Shown: positions 1-61,589 of the stretch, piece after piece
How positions within the stretch are numbered: the stretch's first letter is position 1
Layout: each line of letters opens with the position of its first letter
DNA from: Shigella phage SSP1
Strand: one strand, 5' to 3'
Sequence record: KY963424
DNA: 64,000 nt
The notes under the pieces: model-generated
What the model was told of the DNA's origin: nothing
Databases searched by the model: none
What the model saw: only the letters and a program-made list of their open reading frames with translations
Position numbers and translations under genes: made by a program

Positions 1-2
1 TT

Positions 3-4108: not shown

Positions 4109-4112
4109 AATA

Positions 4113-7885: not shown

Positions 7886-7891
7886 GAGTAT

Positions 7892-7912
7892 AGGGGAGTA
7901 ATTCTCCCCTAT
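7892..7912 (+). terminator. Hairpin after first tail-fibre gene
   Basis: AGGGGAG-TAATT-CTCCCCT inverted repeat followed by ATTTACT. Confidence 0.45.
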
Positions 7913-7928
7913 TTACTAAGGAAATACT

Positions 7929-15970: not shown

Positions 15971-16077
15971 TCTTTTGAATAGCTTAATAATTAGGTCGGA
16001 ATTTCCTCTAGCTAGTAAGTATAGCTTTTCATAATCGAAGAATTTAATTTTTGTTTTCTCCTCGAATTTATGTATAT

Positions 16078-16107
16078 ATTATACTAGATTTCGAGAGAAT
16101 TTAGCAA
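16078..16107 (-). promoter_or_regulatory. T5-type early promoter (TTGCTA-18-TATAAT)
   Basis: Reverse complement reads AAAATTTTAGTTGCTAAATTCTCTCGAAATCTAGTATAAT with A-rich upstream region. Confidence 0.6.
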
Positions 16108-16178
16108 CTAAAATTTTTATTTTTCTGCTTCGGACTTTCTTATCAAACCGAAACTTTCTCTCTCAAATTTATGTATAT

Positions 16179-16207
16179 ATTATACATCATTTATGAGCTA
16201 TTGCCAA
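16179..16207 (-). promoter_or_regulatory. Second tandem early promoter (TTGGCA-17-TATAAT)
   Basis: Reverse complement TTGGCAATAGCTCATAAATGATGTATAAT followed by conserved ATACATAAATTTGAGAGAG box; overlaps stop of helicase gene. Confidence 0.5.
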
Positions 16208-17543
16208 ATGCAATTTTAGCTAATTGAACTGCTTTCTCCGGAGTCATAGTAATAGTTTTCCACCCGTTATTACGATATACTGCCATACGTCCAGAAGCCT
16301 GTCTTAGTCCAGTACCACCTTTCATAATTAGATCTACAACAATAGGATCGAGTTTACCCTTGACAATACGTTGAACACGGCCTGCAAGCTGTTCAATGAG
16401 AGATTCATTATTAATAAGACTTCCCATTATTAAACAAGACAGCTCATTAAGGGAAATACCTTCAGAGAAGATACTTTGAGCGGCTGCGAGTACACAAGGT
16501 CCACCTTTTGCTATATCTTCCTGAATTTTTAATCGATCATCTAAGTGGGTTGCCCCTATAATTTCATATGTTGTAACACCACGCTGTGCAAGAGCTTCTA
16601 GTACTGTTTGGATTAACTCTGTTCTGTCACTTACAATGAGTACTTTATGCCCCATATTCACATATAAATGTGCTAGATTTATAATAGTCTCTCGATATTC
16701 AGGATGGTTGTACACATCATTAGCACGTAATGCCCATGGCACATTCTGATTTCCTGATAACTCAACAGGCACGGAGTACCTATGGATTGTAGGTGCAATA
16801 GTATTATTAACCGGCGGGCTAAAGATCTTATATCCAAAGAAATCTTTGAACATAACTTGTAGACCATCTTTTCTTTTTAATGTTCCAGATAGCCCGATTT
16901 TATAGCGAGCACATGATATTTCTAGGAAGTTAGTGAAAGTTGTAGCCACACAATGGTGAACTTCATCAACTATAACAGTACCGAATACTTTAGAAAGATT
17001 ATTCGCATGTTTATTCACTGTTTGAATATTACTGACCACAATTGGTGGGTCAATATTGTATTTCCCGGAACCTATGATGCCTGGTTCAAACCCAAACCAT
17101 TTACGAACTTCTGCCGCCCACATTTCACGAATAGATGTGTTGGTACAAATTACCAAAGTTTTCTGGCCAAATTTATACGCAAGCGCAAGGGCTAGGATAG
17201 TTTTACCAAATCCAGGCTTACCATTAATAATACAGGTATCATCGCATTCTTCGTATATTGGAAGCTGGTCTTCTTCACGCAGCTTGAACTTAGGTTTTGG
17301 TATATCTACCGGAGCTAATGTGCGTTTATCAACTAATTCGTATTTTACTCCTTTAGCATCTAGTAAGTCTAGACGTGTAATAGGAATCCACTTAATCTCT
17401 TTGGCAACAACACCACTATTCTTATACATAATAGGGTATTTACTAGTCATTGTCTCAATGTGATAAGTGGTTTGCTTACTACAATAATCCCAAAGTTCAT
17501 CATCGGGCTTGAAATAGGCTTTATTAGATATAACAACCTTCAT
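16191..17543 (-). CDS. SF2 DNA helicase (DEAH box)
   Basis: Walker A GKPGFGKT, Walker B VIVDEVHH, C-terminal helicase domain. Confidence 0.8.
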   Translation of the reverse strand: MKVVISNKAYFKPDDELWDYCSKQTTYHIETMTSKYPIMYKNSGVVAKEIKWIPITRLDLLDAKGVKYELVDKRTLAPVDIPKPKFKLREEDQLPIYEECDDTCIINGKPGFGKTILALALAYKFGQKTLVICTNTSIREMWAAEVRKWFGFEPGIIGSGKYNIDPPIVVSNIQTVNKHANNLSKVFGTVIVDEVHHCVATTFTNFLEISCARYKIGLSGTLKRKDGLQVMFKDFFGYKIFSPPVNNTIAPTIHRYSVPVELSGNQNVPWALRANDVYNHPEYRETIINLAHLYVNMGHKVLIVSDRTELIQTVLEALAQRGVTTYEIIGATHLDDRLKIQEDIAKGGPCVLAAAQSIFSEGISLNELSCLIMGSLINNESLIEQLAGRVQRIVKGKLDPIVVDLIMKGGTGLRQASGRMAVYRNNGWKTITMTPEKAVQLAKIAFGNSS

Positions 17544-20597: not shown

Positions 20598-20658
20598 ATT
20601 TAATCTCCTCTTGGTAAGTAAGTATAACTTCAGTGTTTCTTCTCTAACTTACCAATAT

Positions 20659-20688
20659 ATTATACCAAATCTTTAAGCGATTCAGCAA
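20659..20688 (-). promoter_or_regulatory. Putative early promoter inside 3' end of primase gene (TTGCTG-18-TATAAT)
   Basis: Reverse complement TTGCTGAATCGCTTAAAGATTTGGTATAAT upstream of polymerase start. Confidence 0.45.
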
Positions 20689-21550
20689 CTAAAATTTCAA
20701 TACGTTTTGCTAACATATCAATTTCATCTTTGTTTAAGTCACCTGGATCTTTGCCTTCTGGTAGAAGAAAGTTAGCAACTACAGGTGTTAAACGCGTTTT
20801 TGTACGAATTAATTTGGCCAATGCTTGTGCAGCTTTATTACCAGAAGCATCATTATCTAGTAAGATAACAACAACTTTAACACCAGCAATAATATAAGGA
20901 CTGAACTTATCTGCAATGTTATCTGGAGTGAACTGATGTGTACCAAAGCAGCAAGAAGCATAGTCTATACCATTATCCTCTAGGTTCAGCATATCAAAGA
21001 TACCTTCAACTAGGATAAGAACTGGAGTATTATATCGTACAGGGAAAATCGGTGGTGAAACTTGTTTTGGTTTTACTAAGTATTTAGGAGGGGCAGAACT
21101 GTTTATAGAACGACCCAAAAATAGGATATTGCGTCCAACAGCATCTGTGATTGGGAATACAATTCTGCCTTCCCAGTCTGCTTGGTGTTGGAAAGCAAAA
21201 TATTTCTTCAAGGTCTTAGAACTTATACCTCGGAAATCACCTTCGAAAAGGTAAGCAGATTCAGGAATTGCAAGATTCGTAGATCCATTCCTAATCTCTG
21301 AAATCTTTTTACGTACCTGCGATAGTCTTGGGGACTGTCGGTACTGAGTCTCATTAAAATAATGGTAAATGCTCGGTATACCTTTACCGAAGCCACAACT
21401 CAAGCAGTGCATAATACCTGTTTCAGGATCAATACGCAAACTTGGGTGTTTATCGTCATGATCTGGATTGAGACAACAGATGAGGATGTCCCCACCTGTG
21501 TCTTTATATTCAATGCCTTTCAGATCAAGTAGTTCTGTTATTCTACTCAT
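20660..21550 (-). CDS. DNA primase (DnaG-like zinc-binding + Toprim)
   Basis: CxxC...HCLSCGF zinc ribbon near N-terminus; Toprim-like acidic cluster VVILLDNDASG. Confidence 0.75.
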   Translation of the reverse strand: MSRITELLDLKGIEYKDTGGDILICCLNPDHDDKHPSLRIDPETGIMHCLSCGFGKGIPSIYHYFNETQYRQSPRLSQVRKKISEIRNGSTNLAIPESAYLFEGDFRGISSKTLKKYFAFQHQADWEGRIVFPITDAVGRNILFLGRSINSSAPPKYLVKPKQVSPPIFPVRYNTPVLILVEGIFDMLNLEDNGIDYASCCFGTHQFTPDNIADKFSPYIIAGVKVVVILLDNDASGNKAAQALAKLIRTKTRLTPVVANFLLPEGKDPGDLNKDEIDMLAKRIEILVAESLKDLV

Positions 21551-25815: not shown

Positions 25816-26014
25816 TCATTTCTACCTGTAGTTCTTTATTATACTGAGTAGTGAGATCGGCTAACTCTTGCGCTTCTTTCAACCACGCATCTTTGTACGC
25901 TTTATCGTTGATTCCACCAAAGTTATCTAGATAGTTATTTCTAGCAGTTGATACTAGGTTTAACTTTGCTTGAATTTTTGGAAGTGTTATGTTCATAATT
26001 GATCCTCTCATCAA
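25808..26014 (-). CDS. Hypothetical protein (68 aa)
   Basis: ORF directly downstream of an early promoter. Confidence 0.45.
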   Translation of the reverse strand: MMRGSIMNITLPKIQAKLNLVSTARNNYLDNFGGINDKAYKDAWLKEAQELADLTTQYNKELQVEMND

Positions 26015-26025
26015 TTTATATAAAT

Positions 26026-26054
26026 ATTATATAACAAAACTGAGTTGAAAGCAA
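26026..26054 (-). promoter_or_regulatory. T5-type early promoter (TTGCTT-17-TATAAT)
   Basis: Reverse complement ATTTGCTTTCAACTCAGTTTTGTTATATAAT. Confidence 0.6.
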
Positions 26055-26081
26055 ATACATTTATAAAGAAAAAGCCAAGAA

Positions 26082-27184: not shown

Positions 27185-27241
27185 ATTTTATATTTCCTTA
27201 ATTAAGAATTAAACAGAATAGTTCTTTCAAACTATGAGAAT

Positions 27242-27270
27242 ATTATATCAAGAATTATAGAATTAAGCAA
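27242..27270 (-). promoter_or_regulatory. T5-type early promoter (TTGCTT-17-TATAAT)
   Basis: Reverse complement TTTCAGTTGCTTAATTCTATAATTCTTGATATAAT. Confidence 0.6.
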
Positions 27271-27290
27271 CTGAAATTTTTCGGTAATTG

Positions 27291-27545
27291 CTACACATCT
27301 AGTTCAACAATCTCCCAATCATCAGCCAGAGCCTCGTCTAGGGTAAGGTTTACTTGACGGATAAGCGGGGATTCCATACCGTTCTCCCACACATGTTCAG
27401 TCACTGTACCCTGCTCTACGTTAAATTCTAAAACCACTGTAAAGTGTTTATTGTTTTCCCAGCAATCTCGCTGGAGATATTTTACGTCCCCAGCTTTCAG
27501 CAAATCTGTTAGCTTACTCACGGCGTTTTCCTTTTTCTTTATCAA
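27291..27545 (-). CDS. Hypothetical protein (84 aa)
   Basis: ORF overlapping stop of upstream gene. Confidence 0.45.
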   Translation of the reverse strand: MIKKKENAVSKLTDLLKAGDVKYLQRDCWENNKHFTVVLEFNVEQGTVTEHVWENGMESPLIRQVNLTLDEALADDWEIVELDV

Positions 27546-28218
27546 GTTTCAGGGCAGCCTTAACAGCTTCGTTAATCAACGTAATAATTTCTTCACGAGT
27601 CCATTTATATCCCAGAGATTTTACGTCAACCCCTAGCTTTTCCAGGTGTTTAACAGAAGCCAGCTCGTAATTCATATAATGGACGTTCTGTTGTTTGCCT
27701 TCTGATAGAAGCCATACACGGTAGCAACCAACAGGATTATCCATTGCTTTTTTGATTTCACCGATACACTGGTATCCAGGAACCCAAACAAGCTCACCAA
27801 CTGCAAATTCTTCTGCTACAGCATCATCAGGAATAATTGGAGGATTCAATGGATCTACAATATCGTTCAAACGAAGTAAAGCACCATAGCGTTCCAAAAC
27901 TGATTTGACCATTGCTACAGAGCGATAATTACGATCAGCAATTTCTTCAAAAGAATCACCAGATAAATACTGCTCAATAACGTTAGCTAACTCAATGCCT
28001 TCAATGAGTGTGCCACGTTTCTTTTTCTTCATTTCGGCAACTTGGATCTGGCGGTCTTGCCATTCTTCAATCATCCTTTCCATAGTTGGATTGGATGATA
28101 CGCCGAGCATTTCACATGCTGCTTTCTTAGTACCACCGTTCTCCAGATGCTCTATAACTTTTTTAAAGACTTCATCCGGGATTTCATGGATATGTTTCTT
28201 TCTACGAGAACCAGCCAT
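27514..28218 (-). CDS. Putative DNA-binding protein (HTH), first gene behind PN25-like promoter
   Basis: 234 aa; GGTKKAACEMLGVSSNPTMERMIEEW helix-turn-helix-like N-terminus. Confidence 0.55.
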   Translation of the reverse strand: MAGSRRKKHIHEIPDEVFKKVIEHLENGGTKKAACEMLGVSSNPTMERMIEEWQDRQIQVAEMKKKKRGTLIEGIELANVIEQYLSGDSFEEIADRNYRSVAMVKSVLERYGALLRLNDIVDPLNPPIIPDDAVAEEFAVGELVWVPGYQCIGEIKKAMDNPVGCYRVWLLSEGKQQNVHYMNYELASVKHLEKLGVDVKSLGYKWTREEIITLINEAVKAALKLDKEKGKRRE

Positions 28219-28249
28219 ATTTAAACTCCTCTCTCAAATTTATGAATCT

Positions 28250-28278
28250 ATTATACAGAAAAATTTTCCTGAAAGCAA
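28250..28278 (-). promoter_or_regulatory. Early promoter matching T5 PN25 as recalled (TTGCTT-17-TATAAT + ATAAATTTGAGAGAGG box)
   Basis: Reverse complement reads AAAAATTTATTTGCTTTCAGGAAAATTTTTCTGTATAATAGATTCATAAATTTGAGAGAGGAG, which matches the PN25 sequence as I remember it. Confidence 0.8.
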
Positions 28279-28286
28279 ATAAATTT

Positions 28287-28529
28287 TTACGATTCCTTGA
28301 GCAAAGAAGCAAGTTCAGCATAGACTTTATCTAACTCAAAGCCGATGCGAAGAGACACGTTTGTTTTCCGTTGTTTAAGTAACCACTCGGATATGTTAGG
28401 GATGCCAGCTAATCTATGCGGTACCACCCTACATAGCTTTTCCGAAGTGTCGTAAACAGGAACTTTACGTTCTTTTACTGGGAACTTCCTTGTTTCCCAT
28501 TTTTTATTCTTCACTGTCATTTCTAGCAC
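28287..28529 (-). CDS. Hypothetical protein (80 aa)
   Basis: ORF overlapping end of 929-aa gene. Confidence 0.4.
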   Translation of the reverse strand: MLEMTVKNKKWETRKFPVKERKVPVYDTSEKLCRVVPHRLAGIPNISEWLLKQRKTNVSLRIGFELDKVYAELASLLKES

Positions 28530-31293: not shown

Positions 31294-31790
31294 AACAATA
31301 CTCCTGTATTGATTAATCGAAATCTTTTCTTTAGGACTATTCAGAAAGAATAGAACAACTATTACTACTATTTACGTAAACATCAATTATCATCAAACAA
31401 TATGAATAAGTTATCATATCTCAGTGCTGTGCTCTCTTCGCTCATATACAGAATAGAACCTAGGTCATTGGCCGCTAAGCCGATTCTATTTGTCCTCACT
31501 ATCCTATTGGTAGGTGACTACTGTACGTGCCGCCATTCGCTGCTCTTTTCGTTCGCACCCCCATATAAAGCTCTGCCTATATAACGAGCTAAATATGCAC
31601 GGTTTGGATTTACCTTTCCGAATTCAGGGTACACAGATCACTTAATTGAAGATTAACTAATGCAATATAAACACTAGTAATAGTTAAAACAACCCTTAAT
31701 GGGGCAGCCTAACTGTTCCGTATCGCGGATTGTAAACAAGAAAAATTAGCAAAATCAATTTTTACTAATGTCTCTCAATTCAATATAAAT

Positions 31791-31819
31791 ATTATATCAA
31801 GATTTTGGGCATCCTGCAA
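31791..31819 (-). promoter_or_regulatory. Early promoter (TTGCAG-17-TATAAT)
   Basis: Reverse complement TTTTACTTGCAGGATGCCCAAAATCTTGATATAAT; followed by about 480 nt leader before the 929-aa gene. Confidence 0.5.
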
Positions 31820-31913
31820 GTAAAATTTTCCGGATGGTGCTATCATTGGTCTTGAGTACGGGTAAAACCGAGCCAAAATGACTCGGTAATCAGAGTTCAG
31901 CCAATAAAAATCA

Positions 31914-34709: not shown

Positions 34710-34737
34710 AGCTTTCTCCTCTCAAATTTATAAATCA

Positions 34738-34766
34738 ATTATACATAAATTTTTGGCTGAAAGCAA
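34738..34766 (-). promoter_or_regulatory. T5-type early promoter (TTGCTT-17-TATAAT + ATAAATTTGAGAGGAG box)
   Basis: Reverse complement TTTATTTGCTTTCAGCCAAAAATTTATGTATAATTGATTTATAAATTTGAGAGGAG. Confidence 0.65.
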
Positions 34767-34808
34767 ATAAAATAAAAGCCAGGTCGACTAGCAACCCGGC
34801 TGATTAGC

Positions 34809-36683
34809 TTATTTAGCTCGAATATCCTGATGTTTCACTCTGCCCATAACCTCGTGCTGTTTGCCGGGGTTAAATGGACGAGCACCCGGATTTCCAAGAT
34901 ACCCACAAACTCGACGAGTTACCTCAAGAGTTTCGGGGTCATGATTACCACAGATAGGGCACTTAAATCCATCTTCGGATGCTATTGTTTCACCTAAGAA
35001 TCCACATTTACCGCAAGAATCCACTGGAGTATTAATACCGAAGTAATGAACTTTACTAGCAGCATAATTAATAACCCATTCCAGTGCATCTGGGAATCGT
35101 TTCATATCTGGTAGTTCTACATAGGAAATGCACCCACCAGAAGCAATCGGAGTGAAATTAGATTCATAATCAAATTTCACGTTAGGAGCAACTTTACGTT
35201 CTACATCAAGGTGGTGAGAGTTAGTGTAGTATCCTTTGGACAGAATATCTTCATGCTCCGGGAAATATTCGCGGTCTAGACGACAAAAACGGTCACATAG
35301 GGATTCTGATGGTGTAGCATACAGGCTATAACCTAATTTAGTTTCTTCCTTCTTCTGATCGACTCTATCCCGCATGTACTGCAATACACGCTGAACAAAC
35401 TTGATGCAGGTCTCGGACATTGTGTCTACATCTTTGCCAAACATAAACTGTAGCATTTCATGGCAACCAATATACCCTAGAGATACAGAAGCACGGTTAT
35501 AGAAATGATCGAATACATACTCATCCGGCTCCAAGCGTAACCCAAAGGCTCCTGACATATAGAGGATGGGTGCAGCTTTAGCTTGAATGTATTTTAAGCG
35601 ATCAACTCTCCACTCCAATGCTTTTAACGCTGTATCCACACGTAGCTCAAGCAAATCAAAGAATAGATCAATATTTCCTTCAGCTTCGATAGCAATTCTA
35701 GGCAAGTTTACAGAAACAACACCTAAGTTATTACGACCGGCAGTTTCACCATCTTCTGTAGCAGCTAGGAATGAACGGCAGCCCATAGAAACTTTATAGT
35801 CACCAGTAACTTCCACAACCTTATCATAGCTGATATAATCTGGATACATACGTTCAGCAGTACATTTCATAGCTAACTTCTTGATGTCATAATTAACATC
35901 TCCTGGTTTCATATTTACGCCATCACGAAGTACAAATACCAGTTTCGGGAAGATAGCTGTACGTTTATTGATACCTAAACCATCCATGCGTACTTTCAGT
36001 ATTGCTTTCTGTACTAGACGTGCTTCCCAAGAAGTTCCTAGACCAAAACCAAAGGTAATAAATGGACTCTGCCCATTAGAGTTGAACATGGTATTGATTT
36101 CATATTCTAAACCCTGACAAGCGTCATAGACTTCTTTTTCAGTCATCTCCGTAGCCATTACGGATGCTTTGGCTTCATCCTTAGTCCAACGTTTTGCAAA
36201 CGCATGATTTTTGTCATAGGATTTACGAACATAAGGGGCTAATACTTCATCAAGGCGATCTACAGAAGTACCACCATACTGATGGGAGCTAACCTGAGTG
36301 ATAATCTGAGCAGTAATAGCCGCCGCAGTAGTGATAGAGTTTGGAGTGCTAATTTCAGCATTACCAACCTTCATGCCATTCTTCAACATATCTTCCAGGG
36401 CCACCAGACAACAGTTAGTCATGCCTAATGCAGCATAATCAGCATCATGGAAATGAATATCCCCAATCATATGAGCATTTCGAATCTGAATTGGCATTTC
36501 TTCTAGAATTAGATACTTACTCAACTCACCTGCAAGCATATCCCTTTGTGTAGGGAAACGTTCTGAGGGTTTATTGGCATTATTAAATAGCAGTTCTTCA
36601 TCTGCTGACCCTTCGATAATCTCTTTGCAGTTTCTAATTAACGCCTGCATTTCTTTATACTTTAGTTCTTCATTACGATTCAT
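34809..36683 (-). CDS. nrdD: Anaerobic ribonucleoside-triphosphate reductase (class III)
   Basis: 624 aa; C-terminal glycyl-radical motif RVCGYLG and Cys4 zinc site CGKCGF...CPICG. Confidence 0.9.
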   Translation of the reverse strand: MNRNEELKYKEMQALIRNCKEIIEGSADEELLFNNANKPSERFPTQRDMLAGELSKYLILEEMPIQIRNAHMIGDIHFHDADYAALGMTNCCLVALEDMLKNGMKVGNAEISTPNSITTAAAITAQIITQVSSHQYGGTSVDRLDEVLAPYVRKSYDKNHAFAKRWTKDEAKASVMATEMTEKEVYDACQGLEYEINTMFNSNGQSPFITFGFGLGTSWEARLVQKAILKVRMDGLGINKRTAIFPKLVFVLRDGVNMKPGDVNYDIKKLAMKCTAERMYPDYISYDKVVEVTGDYKVSMGCRSFLAATEDGETAGRNNLGVVSVNLPRIAIEAEGNIDLFFDLLELRVDTALKALEWRVDRLKYIQAKAAPILYMSGAFGLRLEPDEYVFDHFYNRASVSLGYIGCHEMLQFMFGKDVDTMSETCIKFVQRVLQYMRDRVDQKKEETKLGYSLYATPSESLCDRFCRLDREYFPEHEDILSKGYYTNSHHLDVERKVAPNVKFDYESNFTPIASGGCISYVELPDMKRFPDALEWVINYAASKVHYFGINTPVDSCGKCGFLGETIASEDGFKCPICGNHDPETLEVTRRVCGYLGNPGARPFNPGKQHEVMGRVKHQDIRAK

Positions 36684-36712: not shown

Positions 36713-36741
36713 ATTATAACTCATTCGAGGGCGGATGTCAA
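36713..36741 (-). promoter_or_regulatory. Consensus sigma70-like promoter for nrdD (TTGACA-17-TATAAT)
   Basis: Reverse complement TTGACATCCGCCCTCGAATGAGTTATAAT. Confidence 0.6.
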
Positions 36742-37368: not shown

Positions 37369-37451
37369 TTATCTAGTATCACACATCTCCCGTTAAAAGC
37401 AAGCAAATTTTTTATTTAAATGCAATATCATAGGCTTATTTAAAATTGTAG

Positions 37452-37480
37452 TTGCTTTTTACTGTATATATTGGTATAAT
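37452..37480 (+). promoter_or_regulatory. T5-type early promoter (TTGCTT-17-TATAAT)
   Basis: AAAATTGTAGTTGCTTTTTACTGTATATATTGGTATAAT. Confidence 0.6.
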
Positions 37481-37553
37481 ATATTTGTAAGTTGATAAAC
37501 AAGATCTTTTTGTTGATCCTCTGTTAGCGAAGTACACTATAGGAGTGTTATTT

Positions 37554-42784: not shown

Positions 42785-43623
42785 TGCAACAATATTTAAA
42801 AATTCTAACAGATGTAATTCTACTAGGTGAACCACGTAACGATCGTACAGGAACAGGCACAGTTTCAATTTTTGATTCCTATGCTAAGTTCGACCTACGT
42901 GAAGGATTCCCTGCCGTAACCACTAAACGTCTAGCTTGGAAATCGGTAGTTGGAGAACTCTTATGGTTTTTATCTGGATCTACAAATCTCCATGATCTGC
43001 GAGTATTCACATTTGGGCGTGACGAAGGACAGTGGACTATCTGGACTCCAAATTATGAAGACCAAGCCATAAGCATGGGTTATGACAGGGGTAATCTGGG
43101 GCCAGTATATGGTAAACAATGGCGCAACTTTGGTGGACGAGATCAGATCCTAGAACTCATTGAGGGTCTTAAGAATAATCCACATGGTCGTAGACACCTA
43201 GTATCTGCATGGAACGTTGCCGAACTAGATAAGATGGCACTACCACCATGTCACTATGGTTTCCAGTGTTACGTAAGTAATGATGGATACTTAGATCTTA
43301 AATGGACACAACGTTCTGTAGACTGTTTTCTAGGTCTGCCTTTTAATATTGCTAGCTATGCTTTATTAACACATATCCTGGCAAAACTGACTGGATTAAA
43401 ACCTCGTTATCTCATCTTTAGTGGTGGAGATACACATATTTACAGTGATCATATAGAGCAAGTAGAGGAGCAAATGAAACGTAAACCACGTCCTTTGCCA
43501 ACTCTAGTAATGCCAGAGTTTGTAGATCTCTATGATTTATTAGAGAATAATACTGCGGCTTGGTCCTTCCAACTTGAAGGATATGATCCACATCCCGCTC
43601 TTAAAGCTAAAATGTCCTCTTAA
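42784..43623 (+). CDS. thyA: Thymidylate synthase
   Basis: RNDRTGTGT, catalytic PPCH, and DxxxxxxNxxxY motifs. Confidence 0.9.
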   Translation: MQQYLKILTDVILLGEPRNDRTGTGTVSIFDSYAKFDLREGFPAVTTKRLAWKSVVGELLWFLSGSTNLHDLRVFTFGRDEGQWTIWTPNYEDQAISMGYDRGNLGPVYGKQWRNFGGRDQILELIEGLKNNPHGRRHLVSAWNVAELDKMALPPCHYGFQCYVSNDGYLDLKWTQRSVDCFLGLPFNIASYALLTHILAKLTGLKPRYLIFSGGDTHIYSDHIEQVEEQMKRKPRPLPTLVMPEFVDLYDLLENNTAAWSFQLEGYDPHPALKAKMSS

Positions 43624-43650: not shown

Positions 43651-43693
43651 TTTGAAATTGTACTTGCTTATTAAGTACAATTTCAAATATAAT
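43651..43693 (+). promoter_or_regulatory. Early promoter embedded in a 15-17 bp perfect inverted repeat (TTGCTT-18-TATAAT)
   Basis: TTTGAAATTGTACTTGCTTATTAAGTACAATTTCAAATATAAT; the two arms are exact reverse complements flanking the -35. Confidence 0.55.
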
Positions 43694-43722
43694 ATACTCA
43701 ATAAGTACAAAAGGATAATAAA

Positions 43723-44106: not shown

Positions 44107-44647
44107 AAAGTTACCTAGCCAAGAAAGATTAAAAGAAATACTAATCTATGATCCAGATACTGGTATATTTACTAATAAGGTAAGTCGTGGTAGGGGAGGA
44201 AAAGCAGGTTCGCCAGCTGGATACCTAAGAAAAGATGGCTATATAACTATTAAGATAGATAAAATAGATTATTTAGCGCATAGGTTAGCCTTTCTATACA
44301 TGACAGGATCAATACCTGATTTAATAGACCACAAAAATAGAATTAGGTCAGATAATAGGTGGATAAATCTAAGAGAAGCTACAAGCCAGTCTAATAACAG
44401 AAATTGTACCGCATCGAGTAAATCTGGATATCTAGGTGTACACTGGAACAAACAACTACAGAAATGGCAAGTACAGGTGATTGATAATAATGGTAAAAAT
44501 ATTTACGGGGGTGTTTTTGATTACTTAGACCTAGAAAGTGCGGTCATAAAGGCTAATGAACTAAGAAAAACACTTCATGGTAGCGAAGCAGTTATAGAAG
44601 ATTTCTATACCAACTATTACCCACCAATAGAGGAACTTAATAAGTGA
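44099..44647 (+). CDS. HNH homing endonuclease with AP2 domain
   Basis: DHKNRIRSDNRWINLREATSQSNNRN (HNH) and GVHWNKQLQKWQVQVIDNNGKNIYGGVFD (AP2-like). Confidence 0.75.
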   Translation: MSKKLPSQERLKEILIYDPDTGIFTNKVSRGRGGKAGSPAGYLRKDGYITIKIDKIDYLAHRLAFLYMTGSIPDLIDHKNRIRSDNRWINLREATSQSNNRNCTASSKSGYLGVHWNKQLQKWQVQVIDNNGKNIYGGVFDYLDLESAVIKANELRKTLHGSEAVIEDFYTNYYPPIEELNK

Positions 44648-45120: not shown

Positions 45121-45140
45121 TAAATAAATTAAAAATTCAC

Positions 45141-45169
45141 TTGCTTAAAGCCCTCTAATTTAGTATAAT
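45141..45169 (+). promoter_or_regulatory. T5-type early promoter (TTGCTT-17-TATAAT)
   Basis: AAAAATTCACTTGCTTAAAGCCCTCTAATTTAGTATAAT. Confidence 0.65.
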
Positions 45170-45196
45170 ATTCGTATTGAAAGTGAGGAGGGCTTT

Positions 45197-45481: not shown

Positions 45482-45927
45482 AGATTACCGAATTTAAAGG
45501 TACTTATAGTTTCTTATCTAACTTTTATTTATCACCAATTACTTTCGAATACCTAAACGAGATATGGCATGCTGATACTGTAGAACATGCTTTTCAGGCT
45601 ATGAAATCCGACCAAAAAGATGATGTAGCTCATGTACTGCGCTCCCTAAATGCAGGTGTTGCCAAACGTAGAGGACGTAAATTAACTCTGCGCTCTGACT
45701 GGGATAAGGTAAAAGATGATGTAATGCTAGAGCTTTTACGGTTAAAGTTTGCAATCCCTGATTTGAGAGACAAACTGTTAGCAACAAAAAATGCAACTTT
45801 GATCGAAGGAAATACCTGGGGAGATACATATTGGGGTGTTTGCCGAGGAATCGGGGATAATACTTTAGGAGTTCTTTTGATGCAGGTAAGGTCTGAAATT
45901 AAAAGAAGCTTACAGTTAATAAATTAA
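45478..45927 (+). CDS. NADAR-family (YbiA/DUF1768-like) protein
   Basis: 149 aa; FLSNFY...EHAFQA...KSDW...GxxxWG pattern typical of the NADAR domain. Confidence 0.6.
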   Translation: MKITEFKGTYSFLSNFYLSPITFEYLNEIWHADTVEHAFQAMKSDQKDDVAHVLRSLNAGVAKRRGRKLTLRSDWDKVKDDVMLELLRLKFAIPDLRDKLLATKNATLIEGNTWGDTYWGVCRGIGDNTLGVLLMQVRSEIKRSLQLIN

Positions 45928-45935
45928 AAATTCAT

Positions 45936-45964
45936 TTGCTAAACGCTTCAAATTCTCGTATAAT
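45936..45964 (+). promoter_or_regulatory. T5-type early promoter (TTGCTA-17-TATAAT)
   Basis: AAAAATTCATTTGCTAAACGCTTCAAATTCTCGTATAAT + CATAAATTGA box. Confidence 0.65.
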
Positions 45965-46002
45965 ATACTTCATAAATTGATAAACAAAAAGGAAAACAAA
46001 TA

Positions 46003-46518
46003 ATGGCTAAGCAGAAAAACGCAAAAACTCAAGCAGCTCCGGCAGTTAAAACTTTCCCGAAGACTGAGGCTAATCGCAAAGCTCGTCTGGAACGTCACCT
46101 GCGTAAGCATCCTACCGATGCTCAGGCTGCGCAAGCACTGAATAATCCGGCTCCGATTCGTCAGAAGCCTAAAGCTAAAAATGCCACCCGTAAATCCTAC
46201 AAAATGGTTATGTATGTAGAAAATTACGGCCACAAATCTGTCCCAGTTTCCCTGAGCTTCAACGCCGGGGCTGAATTGTTCTCTCGTAATGGCATGGCTA
46301 TGAAAGACTATGAGAAAGCAGTTAACCAAAAACGTAAACCAACGGCAGACGTACTACGTGATGCTCGTGGACAGTTTGGTTCTGTTAAGCCAAATATCTT
46401 TGGCGTAGAGTATAGTAAAGATAACGTTCGCGCTCTGTGTTACGGCGTAGGTATTAAGTTCACGGGTGATTCTGCTCGTAAATCTGCTAAACCAGCTCGT
46501 AAGCGTAAAGCGAAGTAA
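46003..46518 (+). CDS. Basic hypothetical protein (171 aa), Lys/Arg-rich termini
   Basis: Strong RBS AAAAGGAAAACAAATAATG; high-GC host-like codon usage. Confidence 0.55.
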   Translation: MAKQKNAKTQAAPAVKTFPKTEANRKARLERHLRKHPTDAQAAQALNNPAPIRQKPKAKNATRKSYKMVMYVENYGHKSVPVSLSFNAGAELFSRNGMAMKDYEKAVNQKRKPTADVLRDARGQFGSVKPNIFGVEYSKDNVRALCYGVGIKFTGDSARKSAKPARKRKAK

Positions 46519-50464: not shown

Positions 50465-50907
50465 TGGAAGAGAATATTTTAGATGTTTTGCGTAGAGCTT
50501 TGCAGGATTCTAAGTTTAATGGTTCTGATAAAGAAGTCGCTAAAAGCTATCAGACCATAATTGGGGATCTTCAGCGTATTGATAAAGATTTCATCACTTC
50601 TGAACAATTTGTGTCTTATCTCAAAGCTCAACTAAAAAGCATTAACCAGATGAAAGCTAAACTTCATGGTCAAGATCTTGATAGTTATAGCTTGCAGTCT
50701 GCTCAGTATGAATACATTCTAAATAAGTGGTTGCAGGAGTATCTGCCCCCTCAGTTATCTGATACTGAGATTCGTAAATACTTTGCAGAATTAGTTAAGC
50801 TAAACCCTGGAATTACAAAAGGTATGCTGATGAAAGCGATTAAGGAAGAATTTCCTGGGCGTTATGATGGTGGTACTGCTGCTCAGATTGCTGGCGAATT
50901 TAATTAA
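50464..50907 (+). CDS. GatB/YqeY-domain protein
   Basis: 147 aa; LSDTEIRKYFAEL...GMLMKAIK pattern typical of YqeY/GatB C-terminal domain. Confidence 0.55.
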   Translation: MEENILDVLRRALQDSKFNGSDKEVAKSYQTIIGDLQRIDKDFITSEQFVSYLKAQLKSINQMKAKLHGQDLDSYSLQSAQYEYILNKWLQEYLPPQLSDTEIRKYFAELVKLNPGITKGMLMKAIKEEFPGRYDGGTAAQIAGEFN

Positions 50908-50915
50908 AAATTTAT

Positions 50916-50944
50916 TTGCTAAATGCCTTTAAATTCTGTATAAT
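50916..50944 (+). promoter_or_regulatory. T5-type early promoter (TTGCTA-17-TATAAT) preceding ORF-less region
   Basis: AAAAATTTATTTGCTAAATGCCTTTAAATTCTGTATAAT + CATAAATTAGGGAAC. Confidence 0.65.
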
Positions 50945-51182
50945 ATATTCATAAATTAGGGAACAGCGAGCCGATTACGCTGAACTTGTCTTAATGTAAG
51001 ATGCGTCGAGCACTAAGATTCGTTGAATAGAGTCGGTGGGTTAGTTGTAAAACTAGTACACATGGGGCGGCAATCCCGGTTAGTGGCTAGAACGTGTAAA
51101 ATGAGGCGTCTGAAACCTCTCCCCTAAACTCTTCTCTAATTTATAAATAGTGGGGTGTGGAAATCACTTATGTAGTAACACT

Positions 51183-54574: not shown

Positions 54575-54690
54575 GGGGTCTTTAAAAATTGCCCCCGGAT
54601 TTTTAGTGGGGTCACAAATTTTGGTCCTCACCACTTATCTGCTACCCTTAAGTGCCCTATGATTTTCCTCTAAAAAGTTAAAAAATTTGA

Positions 54691-54719
54691 TTGCTTGAAT
54701 GCTAAATTCTCTGTATAAT
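54691..54719 (+). promoter_or_regulatory. T5-type early promoter (TTGCTT-17-TATAAT)
   Basis: AAAAAATTTGATTGCTTGAATGCTAAATTCTCTGTATAAT + CTATAAATTTGAGAGAGG. Confidence 0.65.
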
Positions 54720-54749
54720 ATATCTATAAATTTGAGAGAGGAACCAAAT

Positions 54750-55268
54750 ATGAATGTTGATGAGCTAACACAGCACCTCTTATCTAGAGGATTTGATACA
54801 GATAAATATCATTGCTGGTTAAGTCCGGAAGGGTGGCTAACTGTCCCGTTGTATGACTTCTCTGGGATGTTGAGAGGCTATCAGACGTATAATCCTTCTG
54901 CTCCAAAAGGTCATGGTAAGTGCCCCTTTGAAGCTAAATATTTTACTTATTCTACTACACAGTGTGTATGGGGACTAGAAACTCTCAATGGAGATGAAAA
55001 AGTAGTATTGATTGCTGAATCTGTATTTAAGGCAGTTGCATTACATAACGCTGGTTATCCAGCCCTGGCAATGTTGGGTTCTTCTCCAGGAAAAGCGTTA
55101 TTAAAGCAACTGAAATTATTACCTTTTAAATTGGTAGCTGTCGGGGACAACGATCCTGCTGGTGAAAAATTTGCTAGAAAATTGAACGGCTTTGTTTCTC
55201 CCGTAGATGTGGATGAGATGTCTACCGAAAACTTGAAAAATTTTCTTGCTATGAAGCTAAATTTCTAA
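54750..55268 (+). CDS. Toprim-domain protein (primase-like)
   Basis: VVLIAESVFKAVAL (Toprim Glu) and VAVGDNDPAGEKFARKL (DxD) motifs; start MNVDEL with GAGAGAGG RBS. Confidence 0.5.
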   Translation: MNVDELTQHLLSRGFDTDKYHCWLSPEGWLTVPLYDFSGMLRGYQTYNPSAPKGHGKCPFEAKYFTYSTTQCVWGLETLNGDEKVVLIAESVFKAVALHNAGYPALAMLGSSPGKALLKQLKLLPFKLVAVGDNDPAGEKFARKLNGFVSPVDVDEMSTENLKNFLAMKLNF

Positions 55269-55289
55269 TATAATATATCTTATAAATTC

Positions 55290-55378
55290 GGAAGAATAGC
55301 ATAACGGTATTGCAGCAGATTGCTAATCTGTCGGTTTGAAATATAGCCTTGTGGGTTCGATTCCCACTTCTTCCGCCA
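55290..55378 (+). tRNA. tRNA-Ser(GCT), type II
   Basis: Acceptor GGAAGAA/TTCTTCC, anticodon loop TTGCTAA, long variable arm, T-arm GTGGG-TTCGATT-CCCAC, encoded CCA. Confidence 0.8.
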
Positions 55379-56424: not shown

Positions 56425-56454
56425 CTCCTCCAAACAGAATTTTTAAAAATGTAC

Positions 56455-56484
56455 TTGCCTTTTGCTTTAAATTTCTGATATAAT
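56455..56484 (+). promoter_or_regulatory. T5-type early promoter (TTGCCT-18-TATAAT)
   Basis: AAAAATGTACTTGCCTTTTGCTTTAAATTTCTGATATAAT. Confidence 0.55.
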
Positions 56485-56514
56485 AGTTATATAAATTGAT
56501 GAAGGAGTTAACGA

Positions 56515-57852: not shown

Positions 57853-58140
57853 TTGAATGAGCTGCTGATGCATCCTGAAAACTTCTTTATTTACTGCGCG
57901 GATAAGTCGCTGAAACGTAGAATTAACAAAGTCTATCATTATCGTGCTAGTCAACAGCCTTATGTATATGCTTTTGACGGTGATCACATTCCACTAGAAC
58001 AATTATCTTGTGATTACATGATATTGAAGAACTTTGACGAGACGAAGATCTCAAGCGTTCATAATCGACAGAATCCATTAACGTGGAAATATAAGAAGAA
58101 AAAGAAAGGCATCAAATTCTTAAAAAATGTAGTTGCTTAG
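57853..58140 (+). CDS. Hypothetical protein (95 aa)
   Basis: ORF following tRNA block; 3' end overlaps a promoter; weak evidence. Confidence 0.35.
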   Translation: MNELLMHPENFFIYCADKSLKRRINKVYHYRASQQPYVYAFDGDHIPLEQLSCDYMILKNFDETKISSVHNRQNPLTWKYKKKKKGIKFLKNVVA

Positions 58141-58161
58141 TTTCCAAAAGTTCTGTATAAT
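58133..58161 (+). promoter_or_regulatory. T5-type early promoter (TTGCTT-17-TATAAT)
   Basis: AAAAATGTAGTTGCTTAGTTTCCAAAAGTTCTGTATAAT + ACATAAATTGAACTGGAG. Confidence 0.6.
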
Positions 58162-58190
58162 AATTACATAAATTGAACTGGAGAAGCAAC

Positions 58191-60592: not shown

Positions 60593-60608
60593 TTTATTAA
60601 AAATTCAT

Positions 60609-60638
60609 TTGCTATTCTGCTTTATTATCTGTATAATA
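60609..60638 (+). promoter_or_regulatory. T5-type early promoter (TTGCTA-18-TATAAT)
   Basis: AAAAATTCATTTGCTATTCTGCTTTATTATCTGTATAAT. Confidence 0.6.
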
Positions 60639-60669
60639 TATTTTATAAAGTGAAGAGAAGGAAAGCTAA

Positions 60670-61304: not shown

Positions 61305-61323
61305 ATTTCAAGAAAAATGTACT

Positions 61324-61351
61324 TGCTTGATGCTTAATTTCTTGTTATAAT
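61324..61351 (+). promoter_or_regulatory. T5-type early promoter (TTGCTT-16-TATAAT)
   Basis: AAAAATGTACTTGCTTGATGCTTAATTTCTTGTTATAAT + ATATAAATTGATGGGGAG. Confidence 0.55.
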
Positions 61352-61589
61352 ATTTATATAAATTGATGGGGAGAAATCCTCATCATAGTTCACTAAGGTA
61401 TTAGCTCGACCTAGGACTGGCTGCCAAAAAGCACGATCCCTACGATTCGGGAGAAGTTCTAGATTAGTCCACTAGATTCAGTGGCAACTGAGTAGTGTAT
61501 CGGGTTTGCGAGATGACGCGGTTCCTTCCGCTTGAAGCGAAGGTGCTGTAGTTACGCCGAGCTAATAGCCTTAGTAAACTAAAGAATTT

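What the first reader, a model, noticed from the sequence alone, without database searches (positions are those of the whole stretch)
28222..28290. Near-exact match to T5 promoter PN25, and a promoter family with a conserved downstream ATAAATTTGAGAG box
The minus-strand sequence AAAAATTTATTTGCTTTCAGGAAAATTTTTCTGTATAATAGATTCATAAATTTGAGAGAGGAG matches the T5 PN25 promoter as I remember it. More than 20 promoters in the window share the A-tract, TTGCT(T/A) -35, 17-18 bp spacer, TATAAT, and an initial transcribed box (C/T)ATAAATT(G/T)(A/G) that runs into the RBS. The downstream box is conserved beyond what the RBS needs and may be an RNA polymerase or processing signal.
Basis: partly seen in the sequence, partly recalled or inferred. 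Interest (0 to 1): 0.35.

Follow-up and report, generated by a model that had tools for sequence, protein, structure and literature searches.

The report
T5 PN25 promoter and its early-promoter family
This is the counterpart, in a T5-like Salmonella phage, of the well-known T5 promoter PN25, one of 25 near-identical early promoters; their conserved "downstream box" is the first 7 to 13 transcribed bases, already shown for PN25 to control how RNA polymerase leaves the promoter, so the finding is real but known.

Summary
The quoted 63-mer sits at 28226-28288(-). It is identical to the T5 RefSeq feature "promoter P-N 25" and lies in the same position upstream of D2. The window comes from a T5-like Salmonella phage, 97-98% identical to vB_Sen-E22 and NR01.

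A scan that ignores downstream sequence finds 26 early-region promoters, against 3.4 sites expected by chance. All 26 map one-to-one onto promoters annotated in T5.

The box is +1..+13 of the transcript. ATAAATT is perfect at +1..+7 in 15 promoters and within 2 mismatches in 24. The word is not enriched in the window overall, but 17 of its 38 copies lie 6-7 nt after a perfect TATAAT.

The box is kept where no RBS follows (tRNA-Ser starts 8 nt after +1). It shows 0/168 substitutions against T5, like the -35 and -10 hexamers. It is absent from the mapped T5 late and pre-early promoters. It persists, with drift, in relatives down to 49% polymerase identity.

Most likely it is the initial transcribed sequence that tunes initial transcription and promoter escape at these very tight-binding promoters. 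For N25, replacing +3..+20 cuts full-length RNA tenfold. A class-specific regulatory role is not excluded.

Novelty: already known. Interest: low.

The parts
28280..28288 (-). PN25 orthologue: A-tract / UP-like element AAAAATTTA (about -45..-37)
   Evidence: In the family the A-tract positions carry 0.9-1.7 bits each.
28273..28278 (-). PN25 orthologue: -35 hexamer TTGCTT
   Evidence: The family consensus is TTGCT(T/A). There are 0/156 substitutions against T5.
28256..28272 (-). PN25 orthologue: 17-bp spacer TCAGGAAAATTTTTCTG with an AAAATTTTT tract (the 'spacer UP element' of the N25 literature)
   Evidence: Described for N25 in PMC12464699.
28250..28255 (-). PN25 orthologue: -10 hexamer TATAAT
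   Evidence: There are 0/156 substitutions against T5.
28244..28249 (-). PN25 orthologue: discriminator AGATTC (-6..-1); the family consensus is ATATT(C/T)
   Evidence: Numbering follows Klimuk 2020: TATAATAGATTCAT = -12..+2. A at -6 occurs in 26 of 27 core sites.
28231..28243 (-). The 'downstream box' ATAAATTTGAGAG = +1..+13 of the transcript (initial transcribed sequence); the core ATAAATT is 28237-28243
   Evidence: +1..+7 shows 0/168 substitutions against T5.
28226..28231 (-). Shine-Dalgarno GAGGAG (+13..+18); the D2 ATG is at 28216-28218 (+26)
27514..28218 (-). D2-orthologue ORF (234 aa) driven by the promoter
   Evidence: T5 D2 is 705 nt and lies directly after P-N25.
16059..16119 (-). 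Family member = T5 P31B; ITS ATAAATTCGAGGA; no RBS nearby
16160..16219 (-). Family member = T5 P31A; ITS ATAAATTTGAGAG; no RBS nearby
20640..20700 (-). Family member (T5 70987-71061, upstream of DNA polymerase); degenerate ITS GTAAGTTAGAGAA
24653..24712 (-). Family member = T5 P-K28a; ITS ATAAATTGATAAG
26007..26066 (-). Family member (T5 65284-65358); ITS ATAAATTGATGAG
27223..27282 (-). Family member = T5 P-N26; ITS ATAGTTTGAAAGA
31771..31831 (-). Family member (T5 58999-59073); ITS TTGAATTGAGAGA; leader of about 490 nt
34719..34778 (-). Family member (T5 55708-55782); ITS ATAAATTTGAGAG
37440..37499 (+). Family member (T5 53638-53712); ITS GTAAGTTGATAAA
41037..41095 (+). Family member by its upstream half (T5 50061-50135); ITS not box-like (TGAAATAGTGAGA)
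43652..43713 (+). Family member (T5 46937-47011); ITS ATAAGTACAAAAG
45129..45188 (+). Family member by its upstream half (T5 46337-46411); ITS ATTGAAAGTGAGG
45924..45984 (+). Family member = T5 P-H207; ITS ATAAATTGATAAA
48055..48114 (+). Family member (T5 44393-44467); ITS ATAAATTTGAGAA
49382..49441 (+). Family member (T5 43067-43141); ITS TTAAATTGATGAA
50222..50281 (+). Family member = T5 P-D/E33; ITS ATAAATTAATGAG
50904..50963 (+). Family member = T5 P16-17 (drives stable RNA X and a tRNA in T5); ITS ATAAATTAGGGAA; no RBS
54679..54738 (+). Family member = T5 P15a; ITS ATAAATTTGAGAG
55234..55294 (+). Family member = T5 P15b; ITS ATAAATTC, followed directly by tRNA-Ser (starts 55290)
56443..56503 (+). 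Family member = T5 P15c; ITS ATAAATTGATGAA
56815..56874 (+). Family member = T5 P14a; ITS CTAATTTGGAAAC; tRNA-Tyr 118 nt downstream
58121..58180 (+). Family member = T5 P14b; ITS ATAAATTGAACTG
60597..60657 (+). Family member = T5 P13a; ITS ATAAAGTGAAGAG
61311..61370 (+). Family member = T5 P13b (drives stable RNA 2H and tRNAs in T5); ITS ATAAATTGATGGG; no RBS

Best explanation
The element at 28226-28288(-) is the orthologue of bacteriophage T5 early promoter PN25, in a T5-like Salmonella phage. It drives the D2 gene.

It is one of 25 early promoters in the window built on one cassette of about 60 bp:
- an A-tract / UP-like element;
- a -35 hexamer TTGCT(T/A);
- a 17-18 bp spacer with an AAATT tract;
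- TATAAT followed by A at -6;
- an A/T-rich discriminator, consensus ATATT;
- transcription starting at the A of ATAAATT.

The 'downstream box' is therefore the initial transcribed sequence (ITS, the 'downstream sequence region' of the Bujard laboratory): +1 A-T-A-A-A-T-T, then a T/C-G step with G at +8/+9, then a purine-rich, C-poor run that merges with the Shine-Dalgarno sequence where a gene follows.

These promoters bind host sigma-70 RNA polymerase so tightly that leaving the promoter becomes rate-limiting. The ITS sets how efficiently the initially transcribing complex gets through abortive cycling and escapes. Selection therefore keeps it as strictly as the -35 and -10 hexamers.

Shown here: identity with PN25, the family, the position-locking, independence from an RBS, purifying selection, restriction to the early class in T5, and conservation across the virus family.
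Taken from the literature: the effect of the N25 ITS on escape.
Inferred: that the same function explains conservation in all family members.

In mRNA promoters, the box plus the SD make up the whole 21-34 nt leader in 16 of the 19 promoters that have an SD-preceded start codon (the other three have leaders of 51-67 nt). A secondary role as an unstructured, AU-rich translation leader is therefore likely for those.
For: Identity and synteny with the annotated T5 P-N25.

All 26 core promoters map one-to-one to annotated T5 promoter features. These features span about -55..+20, so they include the box.

Information content at +1..+7 totals 6.2 bits, comparable to the A-tract and far above the spacer.

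Position-locking: 17 of 38 ATAAATT copies lie 6-7 nt after TATAAT.

Independence from an RBS:
- five perfect-box promoters have no SD-preceded start codon within 150 nt;
- at 55269 the tRNA starts 8 nt after +1;
- purine content (69%) and C content (7%) of +1..+20 in RBS-less promoters match the rest (73% and 5%), against a sense-strand background of 53% and 18%.

Purifying selection between the window and T5:
- +1..+7: 0/168 substitutions;
- -35 hexamer: 0/156; -10 hexamer: 0/156;
- spacer: 29/442; A-tract: 22/310; upstream flank: 227/2988;
- P(0/168 at 7.4%) is about 3e-6, my calculation from these counts.

The cassette and box persist in Klebsiella IME260, Pectobacterium My1, Proteus PM135, Vibrio pVp-1 and Vibrio D250, whose polymerase identity to the window falls from 78% to 49%.

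Literature on the identical sequence (PMC12464699; PMC5961368):
- N25 is rate-limited at escape;
- replacing +3..+20 ('antiDSR') gives one tenth of the full-length RNA;
- purine content of an ITS correlates with productive yield.

T7 A1, whose ITS also supports easy escape from N25, shares the AU start and a GAGAGG run.
Against: The functional data exist for N25 only; the other family members are covered by analogy.

Large ITS libraries on lambda PR, deoB and lacUV5 associate T's in the first ~7 nt followed by G, and low duplex stability, with slow escape and initial pausing. That describes ATAAATT(T)G. General escape rules therefore do not predict this particular sequence. The box could be a programmed pause rather than an accelerator.

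The published swaps changed +3..+20 as a block. They do not show that the most conserved part, +1..+8, is the active part.

The box is class-specific in T5. It is absent from late P-G25 and P-J5 and from pre-early P-H22, all of which are strong promoters. An element needed only for escape would not have to be class-specific.

From my own knowledge, not checked here: the commercial 'T5 promoter' of pQE vectors replaces this ITS with a lac operator and remains strong.
Confidence: 0.7

Rival explanations
1. The box, together with the ATATT discriminator, is the mark of the early class. A phage protein (pre-early A2, the RNA-polymerase-binding gpT5.026, or the DNA-binding D5 protein) or host H-NS would read it and switch the whole early regulon on or off.
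For: In T5 a perfect TATAAT-N6-ATAAATT occurs 18 times in the 71.5-kb early region. Elsewhere it occurs only at the early-type llp promoter and at one unannotated site in the terminal repeat. The mapped late P-G25 and P-J5 and pre-early P-H22 lack it.

Klimuk 2020 report that gpT5.026 lowers RNA polymerase affinity for the -5/+2 non-template strand of N25, and they link the early/late difference to the discriminator.

The T5 annotation says D5 is involved in shut-off of expression. A2 was suggested to raise polymerase affinity for early promoters (Wang 2005, as cited in PMC10194208).

TTCATAAATT matches the H-NS high-affinity motif tCGATAAATT at 8 of 10 positions.
Against: No binding data exist for any of these proteins at +1..+8. 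The box is asymmetric, with no dyad.

N25 is extremely active with pure host polymerase in vitro and in uninfected cells, so no phage activator is required.

The H-NS resemblance lies in the A/T part only; the CG of the motif is missing.

The box drifts gradually across the virus family rather than switching with a partner protein. D5 homologues are annotated in IME260, My1, PM135 and pVp-1, so co-occurrence cannot discriminate.
Confidence: 0.15
2. The box acts at the RNA level. It would be an unstructured AU-rich 5' leader that enhances ribosome binding or stabilises the mRNA, that is, an extension of the RBS.
For: In 16 of the 19 promoters with an SD-preceded start codon the leader is only 21-34 nt, so the box plus the SD make up the entire 5' UTR. 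+1..+20 has 5.6% C and 71% purine, so little secondary structure is possible.
Against: Five perfect-box promoters have no SD-preceded start codon within 150 nt. One is separated from a tRNA by an 8-nt leader, which 5' processing of the tRNA would be expected to remove. Two correspond to T5 promoters for stable RNAs. Their composition is the same as that of the RBS-bearing ones. This reading can therefore be only a secondary role.
Confidence: 0.08
3. The box is a programmed pause. Either it is an initial-transcription pause at the conserved Y-G step (RNA of 7-8 nt), or it is a sigma-70-dependent promoter-proximal pause, caused by the -10-like hexamer TAAATT at +2..+7. The second kind would hold polymerase near +16..+18 over the SD.
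For: The first Y-G step has its G at +8/+9 in 18 of 26 promoters, against 10% expected. YG steps and T's in the first 7 nt characterise slow or pausing ITSs. TAAATT keeps the A at position 2 and the T at position 6 of TATAAT (read directly from the sequence; the importance of those two positions is my own knowledge).
Against: Published N25 kinetics describe the native ITS as the fastest-escaping variant tested. No pause at +16..+18 is mentioned in the passages of the N25 papers that I retrieved. This rival cannot be tested with sequence alone.
Confidence: 0.05
4. The box has no function of its own. The promoters would be copies of one ancestral cassette, spread by duplication or recombination, and the downstream part would simply not yet have diverged.
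For: The whole -50..+13 region is similar among paralogues. Homology breakpoints between the window and T5 fall near promoters more often than at random positions (22% against 6%).
Against: Conservation is position-specific, not uniform. Spacer positions -29..-22 carry about 0.1-0.3 bits each, while +1..+7 carry 0.3-1.3 bits.

Orthologues show 0/168 changes in +1..+7 against 6-7% in the spacer and A-tract of the same promoters.

The box persists in phages whose polymerases are only 49-58% identical to the window's.

The breakpoint enrichment disappears when compared with intergenic DNA (26% against 22%).
Confidence: 0.02

Closest known systems
Bacteriophage T5 promoter PN25 (P-N 25; NC_005859 63043-63117)
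   Same: The sequence is identical from the A-tract to the Shine-Dalgarno sequence (63/63 over the quoted span). It has the same position directly upstream of D2 and after the T5.110 homologue, and the same strand logic.
   Different: It lies in a different phage, a T5-like Salmonella phage 97-98% identical to vB_Sen-E22 and NR01. There is one A fewer in the upstream A run and one extra T between the SD and the ATG. T5's HNH gene hegI, which lies two genes upstream, is absent here.
T5 early promoter class (published consensus TTGCTT-N17-18-TATAATA, Wang et al. 2005 as cited in record HQ665011; ATATT discriminator, Klimuk et al. 2020)
   Same: All 25 family members fit this consensus, and each has an annotated T5 orthologue.
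   Different: The consensus in common use stops at -6, and the 2020 paper highlights only the discriminator. The transcribed box is included in T5's 75-nt promoter features but is not spelled out there.
Initial transcribed sequence / 'downstream sequence region' (DSR) of N25 (Kammerer et al. 1986; Hsu laboratory)
   Same: It is the same +1..+20 sequence whose replacement lowers productive transcription about tenfold and raises abortive synthesis.
   Different: The experiments treat +3..+20 of one promoter as a block. This analysis shows that the sharply conserved part is +1..+8, across 25 paralogues and six genera.
T7 early E. coli promoters A1, A2, A3
   Same: They are strong sigma-70 early promoters of a lytic coliphage. 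The A1 ITS (ATCGAGAGGG) shares the AU start and the GAGAGG run with N25 and supports escape from N25.
   Different: The three T7 ITSs are unrelated to one another. A start-site box shared by a whole promoter class is therefore not a general property of phage early promoters.
H-NS high-affinity site tCGATAAATT (Lang et al. 2007)
   Same: TTCATAAATT at -3..+7 matches 8 of 10 positions, including the central T-A step.
   Different: The CG is missing, the match is to a short A/T-rich motif, and there is no binding evidence. This is a lead only.

Membership tests
Sigma-70 (housekeeping) bacterial promoter | -35 hexamer related to TTGACA, a 16-18 bp spacer, and a -10 hexamer related to TATAAT | tested here: met
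   TTGCTT, 17 bp, TATAAT at 28278-28250(-). The family gives 27 sites against 3.4 expected.
Sigma-70 (housekeeping) bacterial promoter | Transcription by the host holoenzyme starting about 7 nt after the -10 hexamer | not testable with these tools
   For the identical T5 sequence the literature places +1 at the A of CATAAA (TATAATAGATTCAT = -12..+2). For this phage and the other family members the start is inferred.
T5 promoter PN25 (orthologue) | Sequence identity with the annotated T5 P-N 25 | tested here: met
   63/63 identical over the quoted span, and 96% over 113 aligned columns.
T5 promoter PN25 (orthologue) | Same genomic position: directly upstream of D2, downstream of the origin-binding protein gene and T5.110 | tested here: met
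   Relatives annotate D2 or a helicase under the match.
T5 early promoter class | Consensus TTGCTT-N17-18-TATAATA with an upstream A-tract | tested here: met
T5 early promoter class | ATATT in the discriminator (Klimuk 2020) | tested here: inconclusive
   The family consensus is ATaTtT, but PN25 itself has AGATTC.
T5 early promoter class | Early timing of transcription during infection | not testable with these tools
   Only the location in the early gene region and orthology to T5 early promoters are shown.
Initial transcribed sequence that controls promoter escape (N25 DSR) | Lies within +1..+20 of a promoter that is rate-limited at escape | tested here: met
   The box is +1..+13. N25 is escape-limited according to the literature.
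Initial transcribed sequence that controls promoter escape (N25 DSR) | [quoted passage not shown] | not testable with these tools
   Published for N25 +3..+20. Not done for +1..+8 alone or for other family members.
Initial transcribed sequence that controls promoter escape (N25 DSR) | Purine-rich non-template strand (correlates with productive yield) | tested here: met
   71.5% purine in +1..+20 against 53% background. The correlation is cited.
RBS extension / translational leader | Always followed by a Shine-Dalgarno sequence and a start codon at a fixed short distance | tested here: not met
   Seven promoters (five with a perfect box) have no SD-preceded start codon within 150 nt. In one, tRNA-Ser starts 8 nt after +1.
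RNA processing signal | Occurs inside transcripts at sites to be cut, independently of promoters | tested here: not met
   The 21 ATAAATT copies outside promoters lie on both strands, mostly inside ORFs, with no shared context. The promoter-linked copies are the primary 5' end.
Sigma-70-dependent promoter-proximal pause element | A -10-like hexamer in the early transcribed region on the non-template strand | tested here: met
   TAAATT at +2..+7 matches 4 of 6 positions of TATAAT, including A2 and T6 (sequence). This is a resemblance only.
Sigma-70-dependent promoter-proximal pause element | A polymerase pause about 10 nt downstream of the element | not testable with these tools
   No pause data were found.
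H-NS high-affinity nucleation site | Match to tCGATAAATT | tested here: inconclusive
   8 of 10 positions match; the CG is absent. Binding cannot be tested here.

The most novel reading that the evidence does not exclude
The block from -6 to about +9 (ATATT discriminator, ATAAATT start, Y-G step) is more than an escape-tuning sequence. It would be the cis-signature of the early regulon across the whole family Demerecviridae. A phage factor acting on RNA polymerase (A2, gpT5.026 or D5), or host H-NS, would read it to time the onset or shut-off of all early transcription together. Alternatively it would encode a programmed initial pause used for that purpose.
Probability: 0.15. Interest if true: 0.55.

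Novelty: already known. Interest (0 to 1): 0.2.

Why it matters
PN25 is a workhorse of bacterial expression vectors and a standard model for promoter escape. Finding its orthologue in a T5-like Salmonella phage is expected.

The modest added value is comparative:
- The first 7-8 transcribed bases are under purifying selection as strong as that on the -35 and -10 hexamers.
- They are kept even where the transcript is a tRNA.
- In T5 they are restricted to the early class.
- They persist, with gradual drift, in relatives as distant as Vibrio phages.

This narrows the functionally critical part of the much-studied N25 initial transcribed sequence to +1..+8/9. The hundreds of sequenced T5-like genomes also offer a natural mutagenesis series. 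That series could address why this sequence is favoured, given that large library screens on other promoters associate similar sequences with slow escape.

Tried and rejected
1. Primary papers. Gentz & Bujard 1985 (PMC214212), Kammerer et al. 1986 (PMC1167252) and Hsu et al. 2006 (PMC2528282) are not held in the library. I recall that they already reported homology in the transcribed region of T5 promoters, but this rests on memory and on how later papers cite them.

2. Literature searches. A search using sequence words returned only noise. Searches for a T5 transcription-start or transcriptome study found nothing relevant. The Klimuk supplement holds only figure legends.

3. Window-wide enrichment of ATAAATT and related words is not significant. 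Only the positional test is informative.

4. A PWM scan for extra family members with imperfect hexamers found none beyond the 26 core sites. The PWM, built with a small pseudocount, is strict, so weak members could be missed.

5. Promoters as recombination or mosaic junctions. Breakpoints are enriched against all positions but not against intergenic DNA, so this idea was rejected as a promoter-specific effect.

6. Translation-only, processing-signal and pure common-descent explanations were rejected.

7. NAD-capping determinants were considered from memory. The T/C at -1 and T at +2 do not fit the reported preference, and I did not pursue this.

8. Several fetched loci (L003, L005-L008) did not reach the scripting machine. 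I analysed My1 and PM135 only by pattern search and re-fetched pVp-1 and D250.
Full report
**What is in the sequence**

Its parts, on the minus strand, are:
- A-tract AAAAATTTA, 28288-28280
- -35 hexamer TTGCTT, 28278-28273
- 17-bp spacer TCAGGAAAATTTTTCTG, 28272-28256
- -10 hexamer TATAAT, 28255-28250
- discriminator AGATTC, 28249-28244
- ATAAATTTGAGAG, from 28243 to 28231
- GAGGAG, 28231-28226
- the ATG of a 234-aa ORF, 28218-28216 (ORF 27514-28218)

**Where the window comes from**

The window is a T5-like phage of Salmonella, not T5 itself. Its best matches are vB_Sen-E22 and NR01 at 97-98% identity, and several hundred Demerecviridae records match it. It is in reverse orientation relative to the T5 reference. 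Positions 1-10,000 are late tail genes. Positions 10,000-36,700 (-) and 36,700-64,000 (+) are early genes and the tRNA cluster.

**The PN25 claim**

The T5 RefSeq record annotates 63043-63117 as 'promoter P-N 25', immediately before D2. Aligned with that region, the window is identical from the A-tract through the Shine-Dalgarno sequence. The only differences are one A fewer upstream and one extra T before the ATG. The gene order around it is the same. The element is therefore the PN25 orthologue.

Klimuk et al. 2020 give TATAATAGATTCAT as -12..+2 of N25. That fixes +1 at the A of CATAAA (window 28243). The 'downstream box' is thus +1..+13 of the transcript.

**The family**

I defined promoters without using downstream sequence, as TTG-N3, 17 or 18 bp, TATAAT. 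This gives 27 sites against 3.4 expected, with a maximum of 11 in shuffles. One of them (1823, in the late region, with no A-tract) looks like chance.

The other 26 lie in the early region. Each maps to a promoter feature already annotated in T5: P-N25, P-N26, P-K28a, P31A/B, P13a/b, P14a/b, P15a/b/c, P16-17, P-D/E33, P-H207 and eleven unnamed ones. Those T5 features are 75 nt long and span about -55..+20, so they contain the box.

Information content is high in these places:
- the A-tract (AAAA at about -45..-41);
- TTGC-T;
- an AAATT tract and a G just before the -10;
- TATAAT and the A at -6;
- the discriminator (ATATT);
- +1..+7 (ATAAATT, 6.2 bits in total).

It then declines through a purine-rich stretch.

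A PWM built from the 26 sites recovers only these sites and nothing in shuffled sequence. One of the 26 (36718) is a TTGACA-type promoter without the box. The family proper therefore has 25 members.

**How good is the box**

Counts:
- a perfect ATAAATT at +1..+7 in 15 promoters;
- at most 1 mismatch in 17;
- at most 2 mismatches in 24;

ATAAATT is not over-represented in the window as a word (38 observed, 28 expected). However, 17 of its 38 copies lie exactly 6-7 nt after a perfect TATAAT. The rest are scattered on both strands with no context. The positional enrichment is about 80-fold (15/24 against 0.18 expected).

**Is the box part of the RBS?**

In 16 of the 19 promoters with an SD-preceded start codon, that codon is 21-34 nt from +1. 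There the box and the SD together are the whole leader.

Seven promoters have no SD-preceded start codon within 150 nt, and five of them carry a perfect box:
- At 55269 (= T5 P15b) the box occupies +1..+7 and tRNA-Ser begins 8 nt after +1.
- 50939 corresponds to T5 P16-17 and 61346 to T5 P13b. In T5 these precede the stable RNAs X and 2H.
- 16184 and 16083 are P31A and P31B.

The composition of +1..+20 in the RBS-less set (69% purine, 7% C) matches that of the RBS-bearing set (73%, 5%). The sense-strand background is 53% and 18%. The box is therefore conserved for reasons other than translation, although a secondary leader role in mRNAs is plausible.

**Selection**

I compared each window promoter with its T5 orthologue.

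| Region | Substitutions |
|---|---|
| -35 hexamer | 0/156 |
| -10 hexamer | 0/156 |
| +1..+7 | 0/168 |
| +8..+13 | 3/141 |
| discriminator | 6/149 |
| spacer | 29/442 |
| A-tract | 22/310 |
| upstream flank | 227/2988 |

At the pooled non-hexamer rate of 7.4%, zero changes in 168 sites has a probability of about 3e-6 (my calculation from these counts).

One caveat applies. In two promoters (41072 and 43688) the alignment ends before the ITS because of indels, so their 14 sites are not counted. Neither promoter has the box.

Against Klebsiella phage IME260 the same pattern holds more weakly: ITS 4/42 against spacer 28/95.

**Class specificity**

In T5, a perfect TATAAT-N6-ATAAATT occurs as follows:
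- 18 times in the 71.5-kb early region;
- never in the late region between 81.7 and 110 kb;
- once at the promoter of llp, which has the early-type architecture;
- once at an unannotated site in the terminal repeat.

The mapped late promoters P-G25 (ITS ATTAAAGAGGAG) and P-J5, and the pre-early P-H22, lack it. Klimuk et al. noted that early and late promoters differ mainly in the discriminator (ATATT) and did not mention the transcribed box. The consensus quoted by other annotators is TTGCTT-N17-18-TATAATA.

**Depth of conservation**

The cassette, including a start-site motif, is present in six genera of the family:
- Klebsiella phage IME260: CATAAATTCGAGAGAGG, TATAAATTGATGAGG
- Pectobacterium phage My1
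- Proteus phage PM135: ACATAAAGT
- Vibrio phage pVp-1: CATAAAGTTGAGAAACGGAG, CATAAATTGA
- Vibrio phage D250, whose polymerase is 49% identical to the window's; there the motif has drifted to (C/T)A(T/C)AAA-N-T-N-AGAAA

AYAAA at +1 is found in 3/10 to 10/18 of the TTGC-type promoters in each genome, against at most 0.26 expected.

By contrast, the three early E. coli promoters of T7 have unrelated ITSs.

**Mechanism**

The best-supported explanation comes from work on the identical N25 sequence:
- The promoter forms an extremely stable open complex and is rate-limited at escape.
- Replacing +3..+20 reduces full-length RNA to one tenth and expands abortive synthesis.
- Among tested variants the native ITS escapes fastest, and the authors conclude that it evolved for that purpose (PMC12464699).
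- ITS purine content correlates with productive yield.

A family of near-consensus, UP-element-bearing promoters would all face the same escape problem. That explains a shared, selected ITS.

Two things remain unexplained by this account.
- Large ITS libraries on other promoters link T's in the first ~7 nt followed by G, and low duplex stability, to slow escape and initial pausing. The box ends in a Y-G step with G at +8/+9 in 18 of 26 promoters.
- The box is specific to the early class.

These two points leave room for a regulatory reading, in which A2, gpT5.026, D5 or H-NS would read the box, or for a programmed pause. I rate these readings at about 0.15 and 0.05.

Pure common descent without selection is excluded by the position-specific pattern and by the orthologue test.

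**Verdict**

However, both the promoter and its family, including the functional importance of the transcribed part, are established knowledge.

What this analysis adds is incremental:
- the sharply constrained part is +1..+8/9;
- it is independent of translation;
- it is an early-class mark in T5;
- it is conserved across Demerecviridae.

Noticed in passing
window 36713-36741 (-), upstream of ORF 34809-36683 (nrdD): A full-consensus sigma-70 core promoter, TTGACA-17 bp-TATAAT, with an A-tract but without the ATAAATT box (ITS CTTAGTTAGAGAAGGAGG). The same arrangement is in T5 at 53884-53958. A 2025 JBC paper states that no natural E. coli sigma-70 promoter has the full consensus.
   Followed up: partly
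window 55234-55378 (+): The promoter with its -10 at 55269 has its predicted +1 at 55282, and tRNA-Ser starts at 55290. The primary transcript would therefore carry only an 8-nt leader, AUAAAUUC, which is the box itself.
   Followed up: yes
window 31300-31831 (-); 16059-16219 (-): Promoter 31796 is followed by an untranslated stretch of about 490 nt before the 929-aa origin-binding protein gene (start 31293), with further promoter-like sites at 31734 and 31669. The tandem promoters 16184 and 16083 (= T5 P31A/P31B) also lack a nearby RBS. I did not examine what these leaders do.
   Followed up: no
window 41079/41084 and 28517-28524, against T5 50085-49561 and 62816-62321: Two of T5's HNH homing-endonuclease genes, hegH and hegI, are absent from the window. 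The hegH insertion point lies directly after the discriminator of promoter 41072, so the two phages share that promoter's upstream half but have different transcribed sequences.
   Followed up: partly
window-wide, blastn against T5: Homology breakpoints fall within 60 nt of a family promoter in 11 of 51 cases (22%). That compares with 5.8% of all positions but with 22% of crude intergenic positions. The apparent link to promoters is explained by breakpoints lying in intergenic DNA.
   Followed up: yes
L002 (T5 NC_005859) about 6040-6210 (+); repeated in the right terminal repeat, L003 about 27607: An unannotated promoter-like site, TATAAT-AACTGC-ATAAATT with a weak -35 (TTAGCC), lies in the large non-coding part of the pre-early region. 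It is followed by two copies of TTATCCACA, the DnaA-box word, at about 6120 and 6196.
   Followed up: no
window 51183-51254 and 55385-55459 (+): Rfam's tRNA model matches two loci that ARAGORN did not list (scores 35.5 and 40.3 bits). T5 annotates tRNA-Arg and tRNA-Ile2 in the corresponding regions.
   Followed up: no
window promoters generally: about -45..-38, -21..-16 and +3..+7: Each cassette carries three AAATT-type A/T tracts: in the upstream element, in the spacer and in the ITS. In PN25 their A/T junctions lie at -41/-40, -21/-20 and +5/+6, which is 20 and 25 bp apart. The spacer tract is known for N25 as a 'spacer UP element'. I did not analyse whether the three tracts act together, for example through DNA bending.
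   Followed up: no
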